The notes under the pieces: generated by a model | The model's input: the letters and a program-made list of their open reading frames with translations, nothing else | Databases searched by the model: none | What the model was told of the DNA's origin: nothing | Made by a program: the position numbers and the translations under genes | Source: Dehalococcoidia bacterium | GTDB lineage: Bacteria; Chloroflexota; Dehalococcoidia; UBA2979 | Reading direction: 5' to 3' | DNA length: 64,000 bases | NCBI GenBank assembly: GCA_036013055.1 | Contig: DASCQM010000011.1 | Location: forward strand, 1,132 to 65,131 | Shown here: positions 2,320 through 61,752 of the stretch, in pieces | Layout: each line of letters starts with the position of its first letter | Position numbering within the stretch: position 1 is the stretch's first letter

Positions 2320-3864
2320 TCAGGGCCGCATGGGTCGCATGCGCATGCCGACCTGCGTGCGCAGTTCGATCTGGGCGCGCTGCACCCACTCGACGGTGAG
2401 CTGACGGGTCTCGCGCGGGTCGATCAGGTCGTGCAGCCCGAATGACTCGGCACGCAGGAACGGAGTGCGGTCCTTCTCGTGCTCCGCTTCGAGTTCGAGG
2501 CGACGTTGCTCGGGATCGGGCGCGGCTTCGATCTCGCGTCGATAGGCCGCCCAGACGCCGCCCTCGATCGGGATCGAGCCCCACTCGCCTGATGGCCACG
2601 CGTAGACGGGGCCGTTGCCGTTGTGGTGCGCGCCCTGAGCGACGCCGTAAGCGCGGCGCACGATGAAGTTCACCCACGGCACCGCGGCCTGATTGACGGC
2701 AGCGAGAGCGCGCACGCCCTTGCGCAGGGTGCCGGATCGTTCTGCGTCGACGCCGACCATGAAGCCCGGTTCGTCCTCGAAGCTGAGGATCGGCAGATGG
2801 AACGTGTCGCAGAGGTCGACGAAGCGGCTCAGCTTGTCGGCCGTATCGGCGTCCATCGCGCCGCCGTTGAAGTTCGGGTCGTTGCACATGACGCCGACGG
2901 GGTAGCCATCGACGCGCGCCAGCCCGGTCATCAGGGCTCGGCCGAAGTGGGGCGTGATCTGGAAGAAGGAGCCGTCGTCGACGATGGCGGTGATCAGTTG
3001 ATCGGGGCGGAACGTGCGACGTCGATCGCGGGGGATGATCGACAGCAGTTCCTCCGTACGCCCGTCCGGTGCGTCCGCCGGCTCGGCGCGTGGCGGCAAC
3101 TCCCAGACGTTCGGCGGCAGGTAGCCGAGGAACGCCGCGATCTGACGCAGGCAATCCGCCTCGTCCTCGGCGACGTTGTCGACGAGCCCGCTGAAGGCGT
3201 GCACGCGCCACCCGCCGAGCTCCTCCTTCGACGGCGCGTGCCCGATCGCGCGTTCGACGACCGGCGGACCACCCGCGAAGAGGAATGAGGCATCTCGCAC
3301 CATCACCGAGAAGTGGCTCGCGGCGACCCTCGCAGCCACGATGCCGGCGCAGGCACCCATCGCCCCGGCGACCACCGGCACGGTGCCCAGCAGGTCAGCG
3401 TGAGGCGAGACCGGGGATCCGGCGAGCGCGCGCCCGGCGTGGCGGCTGGTGTTCGTCTTCACGCTGCCGCCGGCACCCTCGTGCAGTCGCACCAGCGGCA
3501 CCTTCAACTGCCGCGCCTGGTGTTCGATGTAGTAGCCCTTGGCGCTGCCGCCGCCGTCCGACGCGCCGCCGCGGATCGTGGCGTCCTCGCCACCGATCAC
3601 GACCTCGCGACCATCGATGCGGCCCGTGCCGATCACCGAGTTGGAGGGCGTGATCTCGAGCAAGTTGCCGTCGTCATCGCGTTCGACACCGGCGCTGATC
3701 GGGCCGACCTCACGGAAGGTGCCGTCGTCGAGCATCGCGTCGATGCGCTCGCGCAGCGTCAGTTCGTCGCGGGAGTGCTTGCGCTCGATGGCCTCAGGGC
3801 CGCCCATCGCGGCGGCGATCTCGCGCCTGCGGTTGATCTCGTCGACTTCAGGTTGCCAGGTCAT
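2320..3864 (-). CDS. acyl-CoA carboxylase carboxyltransferase (beta) subunit family protein
   Basis: 514 aa with the two-lobed carboxyltransferase pattern (DDGTFREVG, GRIDGREVVIGGEDATIRGGA, VPLVRLHEGAGG, NFNGGAMD, AYGVAQGA), as in propionyl-/methylmalonyl-CoA carboxyltransferases. Confidence 0.85.
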   Translation of the reverse strand: MTWQPEVDEINRRREIAAAMGGPEAIERKHSRDELTLRERIDAMLDDGTFREVGPISAGVERDDDGNLLEITPSNSVIGTGRIDGREVVIGGEDATIRGGASDGGGSAKGYYIEHQARQLKVPLVRLHEGAGGSVKTNTSRHAGRALAGSPVSPHADLLGTVPVVAGAMGACAGIVAARVAASHFSVMVRDASFLFAGGPPVVERAIGHAPSKEELGGWRVHAFSGLVDNVAEDEADCLRQIAAFLGYLPPNVWELPPRAEPADAPDGRTEELLSIIPRDRRRTFRPDQLITAIVDDGSFFQITPHFGRALMTGLARVDGYPVGVMCNDPNFNGGAMDADTADKLSRFVDLCDTFHLPILSFEDEPGFMVGVDAERSGTLRKGVRALAAVNQAAVPWVNFIVRRAYGVAQGAHHNGNGPVYAWPSGEWGSIPIEGGVWAAYRREIEAAPDPEQRRLELEAEHEKDRTPFLRAESFGLHDLIDPRETRQLTVEWVQRAQIELRTQVGMRMRPMRP

Positions 3865-3897: not shown

Positions 3898-5124
3898 TCA
3901 TTCAAGGGCACCGGCCGCGGCGTATTCCGCGACCTCGTCAGCGCTCAGGCCGAGTATCTCAGTCAGCACCTCGTACGTGTGCTCGCCGATCAGCGGTCCG
4001 AGGCGCACGTCCGCGGGGTTGCGACGCGCCTGGATCGGGCTGCCGTGTACGAGGAAGTCGCGGCCCGAGGGGTGCGGAAGGCGGTGATAGTAGCGATCGC
4101 TCAACGTCGGGTCGTCGCGCACGAGTTCGCCGAGGGTCTGGTACGGCCCGGCGGGGATACCGCGCTGCTGGAGCGCTTCCGCCAACGGCTGCGGCTCCCA
4201 GCCGACGGTCCACGCGTCGAGCAGCGCATCGATCGCCTCCTCGTTGCTACGGCGGCCCTCGACGGTGGCGAAGTCGTCGTCCGCGAGCGCGGAGATGCCG
4301 GCGAAGTCGACGAGCGCGGCCCACTGCTCGTCTGACTCGACCGCGATCGCGCACCACGAGTCATCGCCCTCGCAGTGGTAGAAGTTGTGCGGCGCGGCCA
4401 CGTCGTCGCGGTTGCCCTTCGGCTGTGGAGCCTCGCCAGTGAGGCTGTGCTCGAGCAGGGTCGTGCCGAGCAGGCTGACCGTCGATTCGTACTGGCTGAC
4501 CTCGATGAACTGCCCTTCGCCGGTGCGGTCGCGGTGCATCAGGGCCGCCATGATCGCGATCGCGGCGTGGAAGGGATTCGATGCGAAGTCGCCGTAGTTG
4601 TGCCCCCACGGCACCGGCGCCTCGCCGGGGTGGCCGCTGACCGACTTCAACCCCGCGATGCCTGCGAACATGTCGCCGAATCCGCGCCAGGCGAGGCGCG
4701 GCCCGCTGCTCTCCATCGTCGGAATGTTCACGACAATGATGCCGCGGTTCAGCTCGCGCACGACGTCGTAGCCGATGCCCCAGCGCTCAAGCTGGTCACC
4801 CGCGAGGTTGCAGATCACGACGTCGGACGCCACGACGAGCTTCAGCAGTAGCTCGCGGCCGCCGTCTGACTGCAGGTTGAGCGTAACCGACGACTTCCCG
4901 GCGTTCGCGTCCTGGAAGTAGCCGCCGGTGTCCGGGTTGCTGTTCGCGTCGCCCGGCAGCTCGCCGTAGAGCGGCGTGCGGTTGCCGCGCCCGACGTCCA
5001 TGCGACGGCGCGACTCGACCTTGACTACCTCCGCGCCGAAGTCGGCGAGCAGGCGACCCGCCAGTGGGCCGGCGATGATCCACGAAAGGTCGACGATGCG
5101 GATGCCGGAGAGCATGCCGGCCAT
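3898..5124 (-). CDS. family III CoA-transferase (CaiB/BaiF type)
   Basis: N-terminal GIRIVDLSWIIAGPLAGRLLADFGAEVVKVE signature of the CaiB/BaiF/Frc family. 408 aa. Start ATG overlaps the stop of the upstream gene (ATGA at 5124). Confidence 0.85.
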   Translation of the reverse strand: MAGMLSGIRIVDLSWIIAGPLAGRLLADFGAEVVKVESRRRMDVGRGNRTPLYGELPGDANSNPDTGGYFQDANAGKSSVTLNLQSDGGRELLLKLVVASDVVICNLAGDQLERWGIGYDVVRELNRGIIVVNIPTMESSGPRLAWRGFGDMFAGIAGLKSVSGHPGEAPVPWGHNYGDFASNPFHAAIAIMAALMHRDRTGEGQFIEVSQYESTVSLLGTTLLEHSLTGEAPQPKGNRDDVAAPHNFYHCEGDDSWCAIAVESDEQWAALVDFAGISALADDDFATVEGRRSNEEAIDALLDAWTVGWEPQPLAEALQQRGIPAGPYQTLGELVRDDPTLSDRYYHRLPHPSGRDFLVHGSPIQARRNPADVRLGPLIGEHTYEVLTEILGLSADEVAEYAAAGALE

Positions 5125-40260: not shown

Positions 40261-40611
40261 TTACCCGGCGAGCGGGATGAACATGCACATCCCGGACTGC
40301 AGCACGTGCGAAGTGTGGCCGTTCCCGGTCGTGTCCTCCGCGCGCAGCACGTCACCAGGCTCCATCACCATGCTCGAACCGTCGCCGCAGCCGATCTCGA
40401 CCGACGCGGTGAGGTAGACGACGTACTGCAGTCGCGGCGCGTTGTGGAACTCGCCGACCGGTCCCGCCTCCCGCTTCAAGAAGTTCGCCGAGGTCGTCGG
40501 CAGCATCTCCGTGCGAGTGCCGTTGCGCTCGACGTAATCGAACTCGCTCGAATCGAGCGATTCGACGTGGGATTCGCCATCGTCGCCGGTGTATACGCGC
40601 CCAAGCTTCAT
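40261..40611 (-). CDS. cupin-domain protein
   Basis: Trimmed to ATG 40611 (116 aa). GEFHNAPRLQYVVYLTASVEIGCGDG...MEPGDVLRAEDTTGNGH is a cupin beta-barrel pattern. Confidence 0.6.
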   Translation of the reverse strand: MKLGRVYTGDDGESHVESLDSSEFDYVERNGTRTEMLPTTSANFLKREAGPVGEFHNAPRLQYVVYLTASVEIGCGDGSSMVMEPGDVLRAEDTTGNGHTSHVLQSGMCMFIPLAG

Positions 40612-40729
40612 CAGCAGCCTCCAACGGTCTCGATGCTTCGGGCGCACTATACGACGCTCCGGACTAGGATTCAGACGAGGTTCCGGAGCGCGCGTCGATG
40701 GCTGCGCCGTGTGGACGGAAGGTTGTGCG

Positions 40730-41329
40730 ATGGCTCGTCCGCCCGTGGAGTCACTGACCGAAGGCTTCGCGCCCCTGCGCACCTGGTTCAATGCCGACCT
40801 CGACCGCCCGAGGTTCGTGGCGATCATGTCCCCTACCTGACCGCAGTGTCTGAAAGGCGCCGGTTCGGTGCAGGAGTCGATTTTCGATGCGTTCCCGGAA
40901 GCGGAGTTCCGCGTAGCGATCGTGTGGATCGACATCATGGACAGCGACACGCCAGCGACCGCGCTGTCGGCGTCCGTCGAGCTTGGGGACGGTCGTGCCT
41001 CGTACTTCCACGACCCCACGCACCACGCCGGTCGAGCGCTGGCGAGGTCGCTGGACTGGCAGCGACACGTCCCGTGGGATGCGTACCTGTTCTACGCGCC
41101 GGGCCAGCGATGGGATGGCGAGGCACCGCCCCCACCGTCGGAGTGGTTCCACGCGCTGCAGGATCGCGAGGTCTGGGAAGAGACCCTCGCCGCCGAGGGT
41201 GCCGAAGGCACCGGGTGGACCGAGCACCTGGCTGAAGAATCCGAGGCGGACCCTGAGCGATTTCGGCGCGATCGGGCGCTCACCGTCGCGCTCCGTGACG
41301 CGGGGACGGAGTGGCTCGCCCGCAGCTAG
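40730..41329 (+). CDS. thioredoxin-fold protein with in-frame TGA at the first position of the CxxC motif (candidate selenoprotein, T-U-P-Q-C)
   Basis: ORFs 40589..40840 and 40868..41329 share one frame and are separated only by TGA 40838-40840. The read-through product is MARPPVESLTEGFAPLRTWFNADLDRPRFVAIMSPT-U-PQCLKGAGSVQESIFDAFPEAEFRVAIVWIDI.... Third-position G/C is high on both sides of the TGA. Confidence 0.55.
40857..40871 (+). promoter_or_regulatory. SECIS-like hairpin 16 nt downstream of TGA 40838
   Basis: GCGCC-GGUUC-GGUGC: 5-bp stem including one G-U pair, with an apical loop starting GGU. A possible outer helix is GAAAG 40852-40856 with UUUUC 40881-40885. Confidence 0.4.
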
Positions 41330-60616: not shown

Positions 60617-61591
60617 TCAGGCGCTAGACTCAGATTCTGCGGCAGGGCTGCGGTAGATCTGCGGTGAAATCGGCTGCCTGGAGAGCATCTGGTCGGCTGG
60701 CGAGAAGCGATGATGCCGCATCGCGGCCTGCTCTGAGCGGTAGCTCGAAGAATACCGCCGCACCATGTCCGGGGATGAGTGTCCGAGCAAGTATTGGACG
60801 TCGAGTTCGCGAGCATCGTGCTCGATCGCCCAGGTAGCGAACGTGTGACGGAAGCGGTGTGCATGCACCTTCGCGATGCCGGTCTCGCGGCCGAGTCGCC
60901 GCAGCATCTGCTTCAGGCCGTTGGGACGAAGCGCGACGCCATCCTTCAGCTGCCCCTGAGAAGTCGACGCGAGGAAGAGCGGCCCCTCGACAGTGCCGCG
61001 GGCGATGAGGTAGCTCTCGATTGCGTCTCGACATCGCTCGGCGAACGGGACGACGCGCTGTTTGCTCCCCTTGCCAAGACGCACAAGTAGTCGCTGTACC
61101 TCGACGTCGAGATCACTCAGATCGAGATGAACGACTTCGGAGCAGCGCAGGCCCGTGTCGACGAGCGTGAACAAGAGAGCTCGGTTGCGCACGCCAACAG
61201 GTCCGTCCCCGCACTCCGCCAGAAGCTGTCCCACCTCCTCGGCGGAGAATGGCTGCACGACGCGCTGCGGCAAACGAATGTTCTTCACGCCGCGGAACGG
61301 CGATTCCTCTAGGTATCCCGACTCGACGAGCCAACTGAAGAAGCACCTCACCTCACGGAAGTATCGATGCCTCGTGTCTGCTGAGAGGTCAGTGAATCGA
61401 CCGAGGTAAACATAGATGTGGTCACGCTCGATGGCGTCAGCGCGGTCAGGTACACCTTCTTCACCGAGCAGTGCGACGAAGCGTTCCAGCGTCCAGCGAT
61501 ACGCGCGAACGGTGTTCGGTGACTTGCCTTCGACGTCGCAGCGCAGCAGGTAGAGGTCGACCAGGTCGGTGAGGTGATTCATCTGGTGCAT
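60617..61591 (-). CDS. tyrosine site-specific recombinase/integrase (XerC/D-like architecture)
   Basis: N-terminal SAM-like core-binding domain (TVRAYRWTLERFVALL). Catalytic residues in order: R (DTGLRCSE), K (GKGSKQRVV), H-x-x-R (HRFRHTFAT), H (LGHSS), Y (VRRYSSSY). ATG 61591 or 61582 is preferred over the TTG 61618 of the ORF track. Confidence 0.88.
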   Translation of the reverse strand: MHQMNHLTDLVDLYLLRCDVEGKSPNTVRAYRWTLERFVALLGEEGVPDRADAIERDHIYVYLGRFTDLSADTRHRYFREVRCFFSWLVESGYLEESPFRGVKNIRLPQRVVQPFSAEEVGQLLAECGDGPVGVRNRALLFTLVDTGLRCSEVVHLDLSDLDVEVQRLLVRLGKGSKQRVVPFAERCRDAIESYLIARGTVEGPLFLASTSQGQLKDGVALRPNGLKQMLRRLGRETGIAKVHAHRFRHTFATWAIEHDARELDVQYLLGHSSPDMVRRYSSSYRSEQAAMRHHRFSPADQMLSRQPISPQIYRSPAAESESSA

Positions 61592-61752
61592 GGACGCTCT
61601 ATGTGGGCGACGAGTCAAGGTGGAGACACTGCATGCGCTCGCTTGTGTCTAGCGACGGACCAGCCCCGGTTGGCGCGATAGAATCTGCTATATTGCGTGC
61701 TCATCCGGGCTAGGTCGCAATCCAACGCGGCGCTCGCCGTGGAACCGCAGGG

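What the first reader, a model, noticed from the sequence alone, without database searches (positions are those of the whole stretch)
40730..41329. Candidate selenoprotein: in-frame TGA at the first Cys position of a thioredoxin-fold CxxC motif, with a SECIS-like hairpin
Seen: ORFs 40589-40840 and 40868-41329 are in the same frame and are separated only by TGA 40838-40840. Third-position G/C stays high across the junction (about 83% in the 36 codons before it).

The read-through protein is ...DRPRFVAIMSPT-[TGA]-PQC-LKGAGSVQESIFDAF...RVAIVWIDI.... That is a hydrophobic beta-strand followed by x-P-Q-C at the start of a helix, which is exactly the geometry of a thioredoxin-fold CxxC site with TGA replacing the first Cys.

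Sixteen nt after the TGA lies a hairpin GCGCC-GGUUC-GGUGC (40857-40871). Its apical loop begins GGU about 22 nt from the UGA. A possible lower helix is GAAAG/UUUUC.

Established knowledge: bacterial selenoproteins very often are thioredoxin-fold proteins with a UxxC motif. Bacterial SECIS elements are stem-loops immediately 3' of the UGA with conserved G/U in the apical loop.

Inference: the product is a 199-residue Sec-containing thiol-selenol oxidoreductase that ordinary gene callers would split or truncate. The alternative is a single TGC/TGT-to-TGA nonsense mutation.
Basis: partly seen in the sequence, partly recalled or inferred. Interest (0 to 1): 0.75.

Follow-up and report, generated by a model that had tools for sequence, protein, structure and literature searches.

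The report
Uncatalogued thioredoxin-fold selenoprotein gene
The "stop" codon at 40838 almost certainly encodes selenocysteine in the active site of a 199-residue thioredoxin-like protein that databases truncate to 153 residues, and its family matches no curated protein-family model searched here.

Summary
ATG 40730 to TAG 41329 is one reading frame interrupted only by TGA 40838-40840.

- **TGA is conserved.** The same TGA sits at the same position in 14 other related sequences (36-72% identical). Protein conservation runs on both sides of it (PLRxWFN..PRFxAIxSPT-U-PxC-xxGAxAV).
- **Cys homologues exist.** Many homologues carry Cys there (SPT-C-xx-C), including a 43%-identical one in the window's own subgroup. 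One relative has Sec at the second position instead (CxxU).
- **SECIS-like hairpin.** All 65 cells pair across 13 Sec forms, with compensatory third-position changes, and it is broken in all 8 Cys forms. It is short (5 bp) and not unusually stable. The proposed lower helix is not supported.
- **Fold.** AlphaFold models of two Cys homologues (pLDDT 87 and 92) match only thioredoxin-fold structures (CcmG, TlpA, Sco, GPx).
- **Family.** It has at least about 150 clusters, roughly 10% probably Sec forms. It has no Pfam or NCBIfam model and is often fused to HMA, MerT or other metal-binding modules.
- **Not testable.** Sec-decoding genes could not be checked, because this is a metagenome contig.

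Verdict: a genuine, mis-annotated selenoprotein and a new member of a known kind.

The parts
40730..41329 (+). Full selenoprotein coding sequence: 199 codons including Sec37, plus the TAG stop
   Evidence: Single frame. GC3 is 0.83 before and 0.82 after the TGA. Homologues are conserved over the whole length (alignment A1; P0144).
40717..40722 (+). GGAAGG, a Shine-Dalgarno-like sequence 7 nt before ATG 40730 (inferred)
   Evidence: Read directly from the sequence. Homologues start at equivalent positions, 12-20 residues before PLRxWFN.
40838..40840 (+). TGA read as selenocysteine (U37), the first position of the U-P-Q-C motif
   Evidence: TGA is at the identical column in 14 other loci. It aligns with Cys in P0011, P0144 and about 120 representatives.
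40847..40849 (+). TGT, Cys40, the second (resolving) position of the UxxC motif
   Evidence: Invariant Cys column in alignments A1 and A5.
40857..40871 (+). SECIS-like hairpin: stem 40857-40861 / 40867-40871, apical loop 40862-40866 (GGUUC), 21 nt after the UGA
   Evidence: Only consensus structure found by RNAalifold. 65 of 65 cells are paired in 13 Sec forms. Pair 30-42 occurs as CG, GC and UA. The helix is broken in 8 of 8 Cys forms.
40868..41329 (+). The truncated 153-residue ORF as currently called in public databases (P0001)
   Evidence: P0001 is listed as held in NCBI, Logan, ENA and NCBI nr as a 153-residue protein. Gene callers also emit a separate 36-residue upstream ORF.

Best explanation
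Window 40730-41329 encodes one 199-residue cytoplasmic selenoprotein with a thioredoxin-like fold.

**Decoding (inferred mechanism).** When the ribosome reaches UGA 40838, the hairpin 21 nt downstream (40857-40871, loop GGUUC) is bound by SelB carrying Sec-tRNA(Sec). Selenocysteine is inserted instead of termination.

**Active site.** Sec37 and Cys40 form a U-P-Q-C motif between strand 1 and the first turn of helix 1. This is the active-site position of CcmG/TlpA-type CxxC oxidoreductases.

**Chemistry (inferred).** The selenolate is the attacking or ligating atom. It either reduces a substrate disulfide through a selenenylsulfide that Cys40 resolves, or it binds a soft metal. The family's repeated fusions to HMA, MerT, TRASH and other metal-binding modules point to keeping metal-binding cysteines reduced, or to handing over Cu(I) or Hg(II).

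**Shown versus inferred.**
- Shown: the conserved TGA, the Sec/Cys pairs, the hairpin conservation, and the fold of two Cys homologues.
- Inferred: actual Sec insertion, the substrate, and the metal link for this stand-alone member.
For: 1. **Conserved TGA.** An in-frame TGA lies at the same column in the window and in L001-L005, L012, L015, L016, L023, L025-L027, L108, L110 and L111. Conserved residues flank it on both sides.
2. **Cys homologues.** Cys sits at that column in P0011-P0026, P0144 (43% identical, same subgroup) and 120 of the 150 best representatives.
3. **Interspersed Sec forms.** Sec forms from separate subgroups each have CxxC relatives at 41-57% identity. L010 has CxxU.
4. 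**Truncated calls.** All three N-truncated representatives that were tested proved to be Sec forms.
5. **Hairpin.** RNAalifold finds it as the sole consensus. Pairing is 100% in 13 sequences. Compensatory synonymous changes give CG, GC and UA at one pair, and GU becomes GC at another. No shuffle out of 500 reaches the observed pairing.
6. **Hairpin specific to Sec forms.** The same helix forms in 10 of 10 Sec forms against 0 of 8 Cys forms. The chance of it arising under synonymous recoding is about 0.12-0.23 per sequence.
7. **bSECIS criteria.** It meets the published criteria for loop size, stem length, G in the first two loop positions, and 16-37 nt spacing (PMC13188914).
8. **Other hairpins.** L023 and L108 have different hairpins with G-containing loops at the same distance.
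9. **Fold.** AlphaFold2 models have pLDDT 87 and 91.7, with Cys47/Cys50 of P0144 at the start of helix 48-63. Foldseek hits are exclusively thioredoxin-fold: CcmG 1kng, Etrx1 4evm, DipZ 2hyx, TlpA-Sco 4txo, Sco and GPx.
10. **TGA is otherwise a stop.** It is an ordinary stop elsewhere in the window.
11. **Lineage.** The nearest CtaD relatives are Chloroflexota MAGs. Dehalococcoidia are among the most selenoprotein-rich bacteria (PMC13326102).
Against: - **No Sec machinery seen.** No selA, selB, selD or tRNA-Sec was found in the 64 kb window or in any fetched locus. The rest of the genome is not available.
- **Weak hairpin.** It has only 5 bp, with dG of -4.6 to -6.4 kcal/mol alone, against the -7.5 kcal/mol threshold of the bSECIS model.
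- **No excess stability.** The region folds no better than synonymous recodings or dinucleotide shuffles. In the window sequence alone, the minimum-energy fold is a different hairpin.
- **Limited covariation.** It rests on one pair, with two or three events among related sequences.
- **No Rfam match**.
- **No expression or peptide evidence.**
- **Indirect structure.** The models are of Cys homologues, not of the window protein itself.
- **No conserved gene neighbourhood** to fix the function.
Confidence: 0.88

Rival explanations
1. It is a pseudogene. A TGY-to-TGA nonsense mutation inactivated a CxxC thioredoxin-like gene, or left only a 153-residue remnant translated from GTG 40868.
For: Public gene calls give only the 153-residue ORF. 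Most family members have Cys at this position.
Against: The TGA is retained at the same column in 15 loci as little as 36% identical. The upstream 36 codons stay under protein-level conservation with high GC3. The 153-residue remnant would lack strand 1 and the whole active site.
Confidence: 0.02
2. The UGA is read through by something other than Sec. Candidates are near-cognate Trp or Cys insertion, or a lineage-wide reassignment of UGA.
For: No Sec machinery could be shown in this organism. The hairpin is weak.
Against: UGA ends many ordinary genes in the window. One example is the CoA-transferase stop at 3898-3900, followed by a new ATG. The TGA aligns specifically with a redox Cys. It occurs in phyla with standard code, such as Desulfobacterales. 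A position-specific hairpin accompanies it only in the TGA forms.
Confidence: 0.04
3. It is a genuine selenoprotein but not a new family. [quoted passage not shown]
For: Those families are also TlpA-like UxxC proteins (PMC13188914 Table 1; PMC1088965). CDD model cd02966 and the representative accessions could not be compared here.
Against: The window protein gave no hit at E<=10, and 20 other family members none on this domain except sub-threshold Thioredoxin_4 (E 6.5e-4, 20.4 bits vs 23.2 cutoff) and MJ0307-thioredoxin (E 0.021) matches. This includes the AhpC-TSA, Redoxin, Thioredoxin_8 and Thioredoxin_2 models that TlpA-like proteins normally hit. A PDB sequence-profile search finds only the fused HMA domain. 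The only source names are for the HMA domain.
Confidence: 0.2

Closest known systems
Bacterial UxxC thioredoxin-fold selenoproteins (Sec-thioredoxin, Prx-like thiol:disulfide oxidoreductase, thiol:disulfide interchange protein, Redoxin-family UxxC; PMC13188914 Table 1)
   Same: Sec replaces the N-terminal Cys of a CxxC motif at the start of helix 1 of a thioredoxin fold. The hairpin lies in the coding region just 3' of the UGA. Cys homologues are far more numerous. Gene callers truncate the product.
   Different: There is no above-cutoff sequence match to any Pfam or NCBIfam model of those families. The signature is distinct: SPT-[U/C]-xx-C, FHDP, AWDxY, PPxPxxWxHQL. The window subgroup has a C-terminal helical extension of about 60 residues. 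One relative has the CxxU arrangement.
CcmG / TlpA / ResA / Etrx reducing thiol-disulfide oxidoreductases, and Sco copper chaperones
   Same: They are the best structural matches: 1kng at prob 1.00, then 4evm, 2hyx, 4txo, 1wp0 and 1xzo. They share the strand-CxxC-helix geometry. TlpA reduces the Cys pairs of the copper proteins ScoI and CoxB, which parallels this family's fusions to metal-binding domains.
   Different: Foldseek E-values reach only about 2e-3, with TM-scores of 0.5-0.56 and 10-18% identity. The conserved cis-Pro of these families is not conserved here (VPW in the window, VAW in its relatives). The window protein has no signal peptide or membrane anchor.
Metal-handling selenoproteins (UxxU metal-binding protein NF041115, MerT/CopZ fusion NF045683, DF family NF049942)
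   Same: Cys-form relatives of the window protein are fused to exactly these domains. Sec is recurrent in this functional neighbourhood.
   Different: Those models match the fusion partners, not the thioredoxin-like domain. The window protein carries none of them.

Membership tests
Bacterial selenoprotein gene | The in-frame UGA aligns with Cys in homologues (Sec/Cys pair) | tested here: met
   P0011, P0144 and 120 of the 150 best representatives have Cys at that column.
Bacterial selenoprotein gene | TGA-containing homologues exist in other organisms, with conservation on both sides of the TGA | tested here: met
   14 further loci, 36-72% identical, in several subgroups.
Bacterial selenoprotein gene | bSECIS: 4-16 bp upper stem, 3-9 nt loop, G in the first two loop positions, 16-37 nt after the UGA, MFE <= -7.5 kcal/mol (PMC13188914) | tested here: inconclusive
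   Stem of 5 bp, loop of 5 nt (GGUUC), invariant G at the second loop position, and spacing of 21 nt are all met and conserved with covariation. The hairpin alone is -6.4 kcal/mol. The region is no more stable than controls.
Bacterial selenoprotein gene | selA, selB, selC and selD are present in the same genome | not testable with these tools
   This is a metagenome contig. None was found in the window or loci. The probable phylum, Chloroflexota, includes selenoprotein-rich members.
Bacterial selenoprotein gene | Selenium is physically incorporated (75Se labelling or mass spectrometry) | not testable with these tools
   This needs an experiment.
Thioredoxin-fold CxxC oxidoreductase (TlpA/CcmG-like) | Thioredoxin fold with the CxxC motif between strand 1 and the N-terminus of helix 1 | tested here: met
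   AlphaFold2 models of P0017 (pLDDT 87) and P0144 (pLDDT 91.7). In P0144 the strand is 37-43, the cysteines are C47 and C50, and the helix is 48-63. All Foldseek hits are thioredoxin-fold. The window protein itself could not be submitted.
Thioredoxin-fold CxxC oxidoreductase (TlpA/CcmG-like) | Sequence membership in Pfam or NCBIfam thioredoxin-clan models (AhpC-TSA, Redoxin, Thioredoxin_8 and others) | tested here: not met
   The window protein has no hit at E<=10. Other family members reach only sub-threshold Thioredoxin_4 matches.
Thioredoxin-fold CxxC oxidoreductase (TlpA/CcmG-like) | Conserved cis-proline loop facing the active site | tested here: inconclusive
   The equivalent stretch is (P)AWDxY, with invariant W and D. 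The Pro is variable (VPW in the window, VAW in its relatives).
Catalogued prokaryotic selenoprotein families (119 in PMC13188914 Table 1) | A match to the family's listed Pfam, NCBIfam or TIGRFAM model | tested here: not met
   No hit to any listed PF, NF or TIGR model. Families defined only by CDD identifiers (cd02966, cd02970) could not be tested.

The most novel reading that the evidence does not exclude
A large thioredoxin-like family with no Pfam or NCBIfam model is an uncatalogued selenoprotein family. Its signature is SPT-[C/U]-xx-[C/U], and it has at least about 150 clusters at 50% identity. Selenocysteine has been recruited in several of its subgroups, at either redox position. The family's role would be to service soft-metal (Cu or Hg) binding modules. 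That would make it a selenol-based partner of HMA/MerT-type metal handling rather than a general antioxidant.
Probability: 0.35. Interest if true: 0.6.

Novelty: new member of a known kind. Interest (0 to 1): 0.5.

Why it matters
**Annotation.** Public databases hold this gene, and about a tenth of its family, as N-terminally truncated proteins that lack their active site. A corrected annotation restores a 199-residue selenoenzyme.

**Catalogue.** It adds a family to the prokaryotic selenoproteome list. That list is still compiled family by family and is used to train predictors such as deep-Sep and BSepDB.

**Biology.** The family contains UxxC, CxxC and CxxU forms. Its Cys forms are fused to HMA, MerT, TRASH and DF-family domains. 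This offers a natural system for asking why selenium is chosen over sulfur in metal-associated redox chemistry.

**Limits.** It is not a new mechanism. The decoding and the fold are both conventional.

Tried and rejected
- **Family models.** Pfam and NCBIfam scans of the read-through protein (Cys in place of Sec) gave no hits at E<=10.
- **Rfam.** The local region at E<=10 and the whole window at gathering thresholds gave no SECIS or other relevant match.
- **PDB by sequence profile.** It found only the fused HMA domain, because the profile unintentionally included it. For the same reason, the low-stringency counts of the deep search (5481, 1673) are inflated. Only the top 150 were used.
- **Structure of the window protein.** Cys homologues P0017 and P0144 were modelled instead.
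- **Wider genome scan.** Family-wide alignments had no stretch conserved enough to scan genomes.
- **Sec machinery.** tRNA-Sec and sel genes were not found in the window or in the 27 loci (L001-L027) scanned for tRNA genes.
- **Second candidate Sec site.** The TGA at 3898-3900 (minus strand), between two long in-frame ORFs, is an ordinary stop between a CoA-transferase and a carboxyltransferase.
- **Thermodynamics.** Tests of the SECIS region against synonymous recodings and dinucleotide shuffles showed no excess stability.
- **BSepDB reference sequences.** The supplement is not held.
- **Literature.** A search for a thioredoxin-like/HMA selenoprotein found nothing matching.

Full report
**1. 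The observation**

The coordinates are right. ATG 40730, TGA 40838-40840, GTG 40868 and TAG 41327-41329 lie in one frame. The read-through protein has 199 residues: MARPPVESLTEGFAPLRTWFNADLDRPRFVAIMSPT-U-PQC-LKGAGSVQES...

Third-position G+C is 0.833 in the 36 codons before the TGA and 0.817 in the 153 codons after GTG 40868. It is about 0.6 in the other frames and about 0.6 in-frame upstream of ATG 40730. Coding signal therefore begins near 40730 and crosses the TGA.

A GGAAGG lies 7 nt before the ATG. The hairpin GCGCC-GGTTC-GGTGC is at 40857-40871.

**2. Homologues**

A search with the read-through protein (Cys in place of the TGA) returned 11 proteins. Ten of them are 128-163 residues long and begin just after the motif. 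One, P0011, is full length and reads ...PRFVAILSST-C-AAC-VAGAVAVQ....

I fetched the DNA around the short ones. In every case the frame continues upstream through a TGA at the identical column, preceded by conserved PLRxWFN..PRFxAI(L/M)S(A/P)T:
- L001-L005.
- L025-L027.
- L012, L015, L016 and L023, from a metagenome scan.

These sequences are 36-72% identical to the window protein. A one-off nonsense mutation is therefore excluded.

The same scans found Cys forms (TC[AG]AC) in L011 (a Planctomycetota MAG), L013, L014 and L017-L022. L010, from a Desulfobacterales MAG, has SPT-C-P-L-TGA, with Sec at the second position.

**3. Size and make-up of the family**

An exhaustive profile search gave 286 clusters at E<=1e-30. 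The profile included a fused HMA domain, so I used only the best 150.
- 120 have (L/V)SPT-C-xx-C.
- 16 are gene calls that start with M, V or L between 1 and 32 columns after the motif.
- I tested three of these (P0041, P0047, P0120). All three have an in-frame TGA at the first Cys position (L108, L110, L111). Roughly a tenth of the family is therefore probably Sec-containing.

P0144 is a Cys form in the window's own subgroup. It is 43% identical over the full length and reads SST-C-PMC. Sec forms from different subgroups each have CxxC relatives at 41-57% identity.

**4. The SECIS candidate**

- **Pairing.** All 65 cells are paired.
- **Covariation.** The pair formed by the third positions of a Gly and a Val codon occurs as C-G (10), G-C (2) and U-A (1). 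A G.U pair becomes G-C in L110. None of 500 shuffles reaches the observed pairing or covariation score. Versions slid by one to three columns pair in only 26-59% of cells.
- **Caveat on these counts.** The sequences are related, so the counts overstate independence. Only one pair shows double changes.
- **Contrast with Cys forms.** They encode nearly the same peptide (GAVAV) but use codons that break both free pairs in all 8 loci. Their hairpin dG is +0.3 or higher, against -4.6 to -6.4 kcal/mol in the Sec forms. Under synonymous recoding the helix would arise with probability of only about 0.12-0.23 per sequence.
- **Published bSECIS model.** The hairpin satisfies the criteria for loop size, stem length, G in the first two loop positions, and 16-37 nt spacing (PMC13188914).
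- **Other subgroups.** L023 and L108 carry different hairpins with G-containing loops at almost the same distance from the UGA.

Several points count against it:
- The hairpin is short.
- Taken alone, it misses the -7.5 kcal/mol criterion.
- The region is no more stable than synonymous recodings or shuffles.
- In the window sequence alone, the minimum-energy fold is a competing hairpin.
- Rfam finds nothing.

**5. Fold**

The window protein itself could not be submitted to AlphaFold2. I modelled two Cys homologues instead.

| Model | pLDDT | pTM |
|---|---|---|
| P0017 | 87 | 0.85 |
| P0144 | 91.7 | 0.87 |

In P0144, strand 37-43 is followed by Cys47 and Cys50 at the start of helix 48-63.

Foldseek against the PDB returns only thioredoxin-fold proteins: CcmG 1kng (prob 1.00, E 1.8e-3), Etrx1 4evm, DipZ 2hyx, the TlpA-ScoI complex 4txo, Sco1/BsSco, and glutathione peroxidases. 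TM-scores are about 0.5 and identity is 10-18%. The fold is clear, but no close structural relative exists.

**6. Is the family known?**

The window protein has no hit to any Pfam-A or NCBIfam (release 20) model at E<=10. Twenty other members gave nothing on this domain beyond sub-threshold Thioredoxin_4 (best E 6.5e-4, 20.4 bits against a 23.2-bit cutoff) and MJ0307-thioredoxin (E 0.021) matches. A PDB sequence-profile search matches only the HMA domain. The only names given by sources refer to that domain.

The 2026 inventory of 119 prokaryotic selenoprotein families identifies nearly all of them by Pfam, NCBIfam or TIGRFAM models (PMC13188914). This protein matches none. Two or three families defined only by CDD models (cd02966, cd02970) could not be compared. 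I leave about a 20% chance that it is already listed under one of those names.

**7. Function**

Cys-form relatives are commonly fused to HMA domains. Individual members also carry MerT/MerTP, a TRASH domain, Thioredoxin_3, or the DF-family domain. Several of these fusion partners match NCBIfam models that are themselves selenoprotein families.

Some forms carry a lipoprotein-type signal, including the Sec form L108. The window protein has neither a signal peptide nor a fusion.

Gene neighbourhoods of the Sec forms are not conserved. One sits beside COX2-COX1 (L001) and one beside a MerR regulator (L026).

The best-supported reading is a selenol/thiol oxidoreductase of the CcmG/TlpA type. A role in keeping metal-binding cysteines reduced, or in binding Cu(I) or Hg(II), is plausible but unproven.

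**8. Organism and Sec machinery**

The window is part of a 103.7 kb metagenome contig (JAMYGI010012676.1). The same gene occurs on more than 20 contigs from several samples.

Its cytochrome oxidase subunit I is closest, at 68% identity, to Anaerolineaceae and Dehalococcoidia MAGs. This suggests Chloroflexota. Dehalococcoidia are among the most selenoprotein-rich bacteria known (PMC13326102).

No sel genes or tRNA-Sec occur in the window or in the fetched loci. That says nothing about the rest of the genome. TGA functions as a normal stop elsewhere in the window.

**9. Verdict**

This is a genuine, mis-annotated thioredoxin-fold UxxC selenoprotein gene.

By every test available here it belongs to an uncatalogued family. 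I classify it as a new member of a known kind. It is of moderate interest, because the decoding mechanism and the fold are conventional.

Noticed in passing
L010:1511-1525 (Desulfobacterales MAG JBFFCW010000451.1): A family member has Sec at the second redox position (SPT-C-P-L-TGA, CxxU) instead of the first. The same hairpin lies about 6 nt closer to the UGA.
   Followed up: partly
L108:2264-3364 (CAZJHD010000032.1, GCA_964545855.1); also L110 and L111: These are Sec forms in other subgroups. L108 combines a lipoprotein-like signal, T-TGA-GAC and a long C-terminal extension matching the HMA part of the query profile (no Pfam hit on record). All three N-truncated database representatives that were tested turned out to be Sec forms.
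   Followed up: yes
P0014, P0023, P0031, P0159 (Cys-form relatives): Their fusion partners match NCBIfam models of other (seleno)protein families: UxxU metal-binding NF041115, DF family NF049942, MerT/CopZ NF045683 and MerTP NF033556. This points to a metal-handling context for the whole family.
   Followed up: partly
P0066, P0068, P0072, P0073, P0087, P0119, P0145: Some family members lack the first Cys (SPT-[S/H/E/D]-xx-C, or both positions changed). They may be single-Cys or inactive variants.
   Followed up: no
window 3898-3900 (minus strand): Two long high-GC3 ORFs lie in one frame, separated by a single TGA, and look like a second Sec candidate. They are in fact a family III CoA-transferase ending normally and a carboxyltransferase starting at an ATG 12 codons later.
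   Followed up: yes
L006 vs L007, about 15.2-20.4 kb: The same locus in another sample carries about five different genes between the ABC transporter and the Usp/Na-Ca exchanger genes. This is strain-level variation next to the selenoprotein locus.
   Followed up: no
window 60617-61618 (minus strand): A XerC/XerD-like tyrosine recombinase gene sits where G+C falls to about 0.61. This may be the edge of a mobile or acquired segment.
   Followed up: no
L001:1-2193 and 2602-3462; L026:505-933: In one relative the Sec gene lies divergently next to the cytochrome oxidase COX2-COX1 genes. In another, a MerR-family regulator is its convergent neighbour. The two cases are isolated but fit a metal or redox role.
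   Followed up: no
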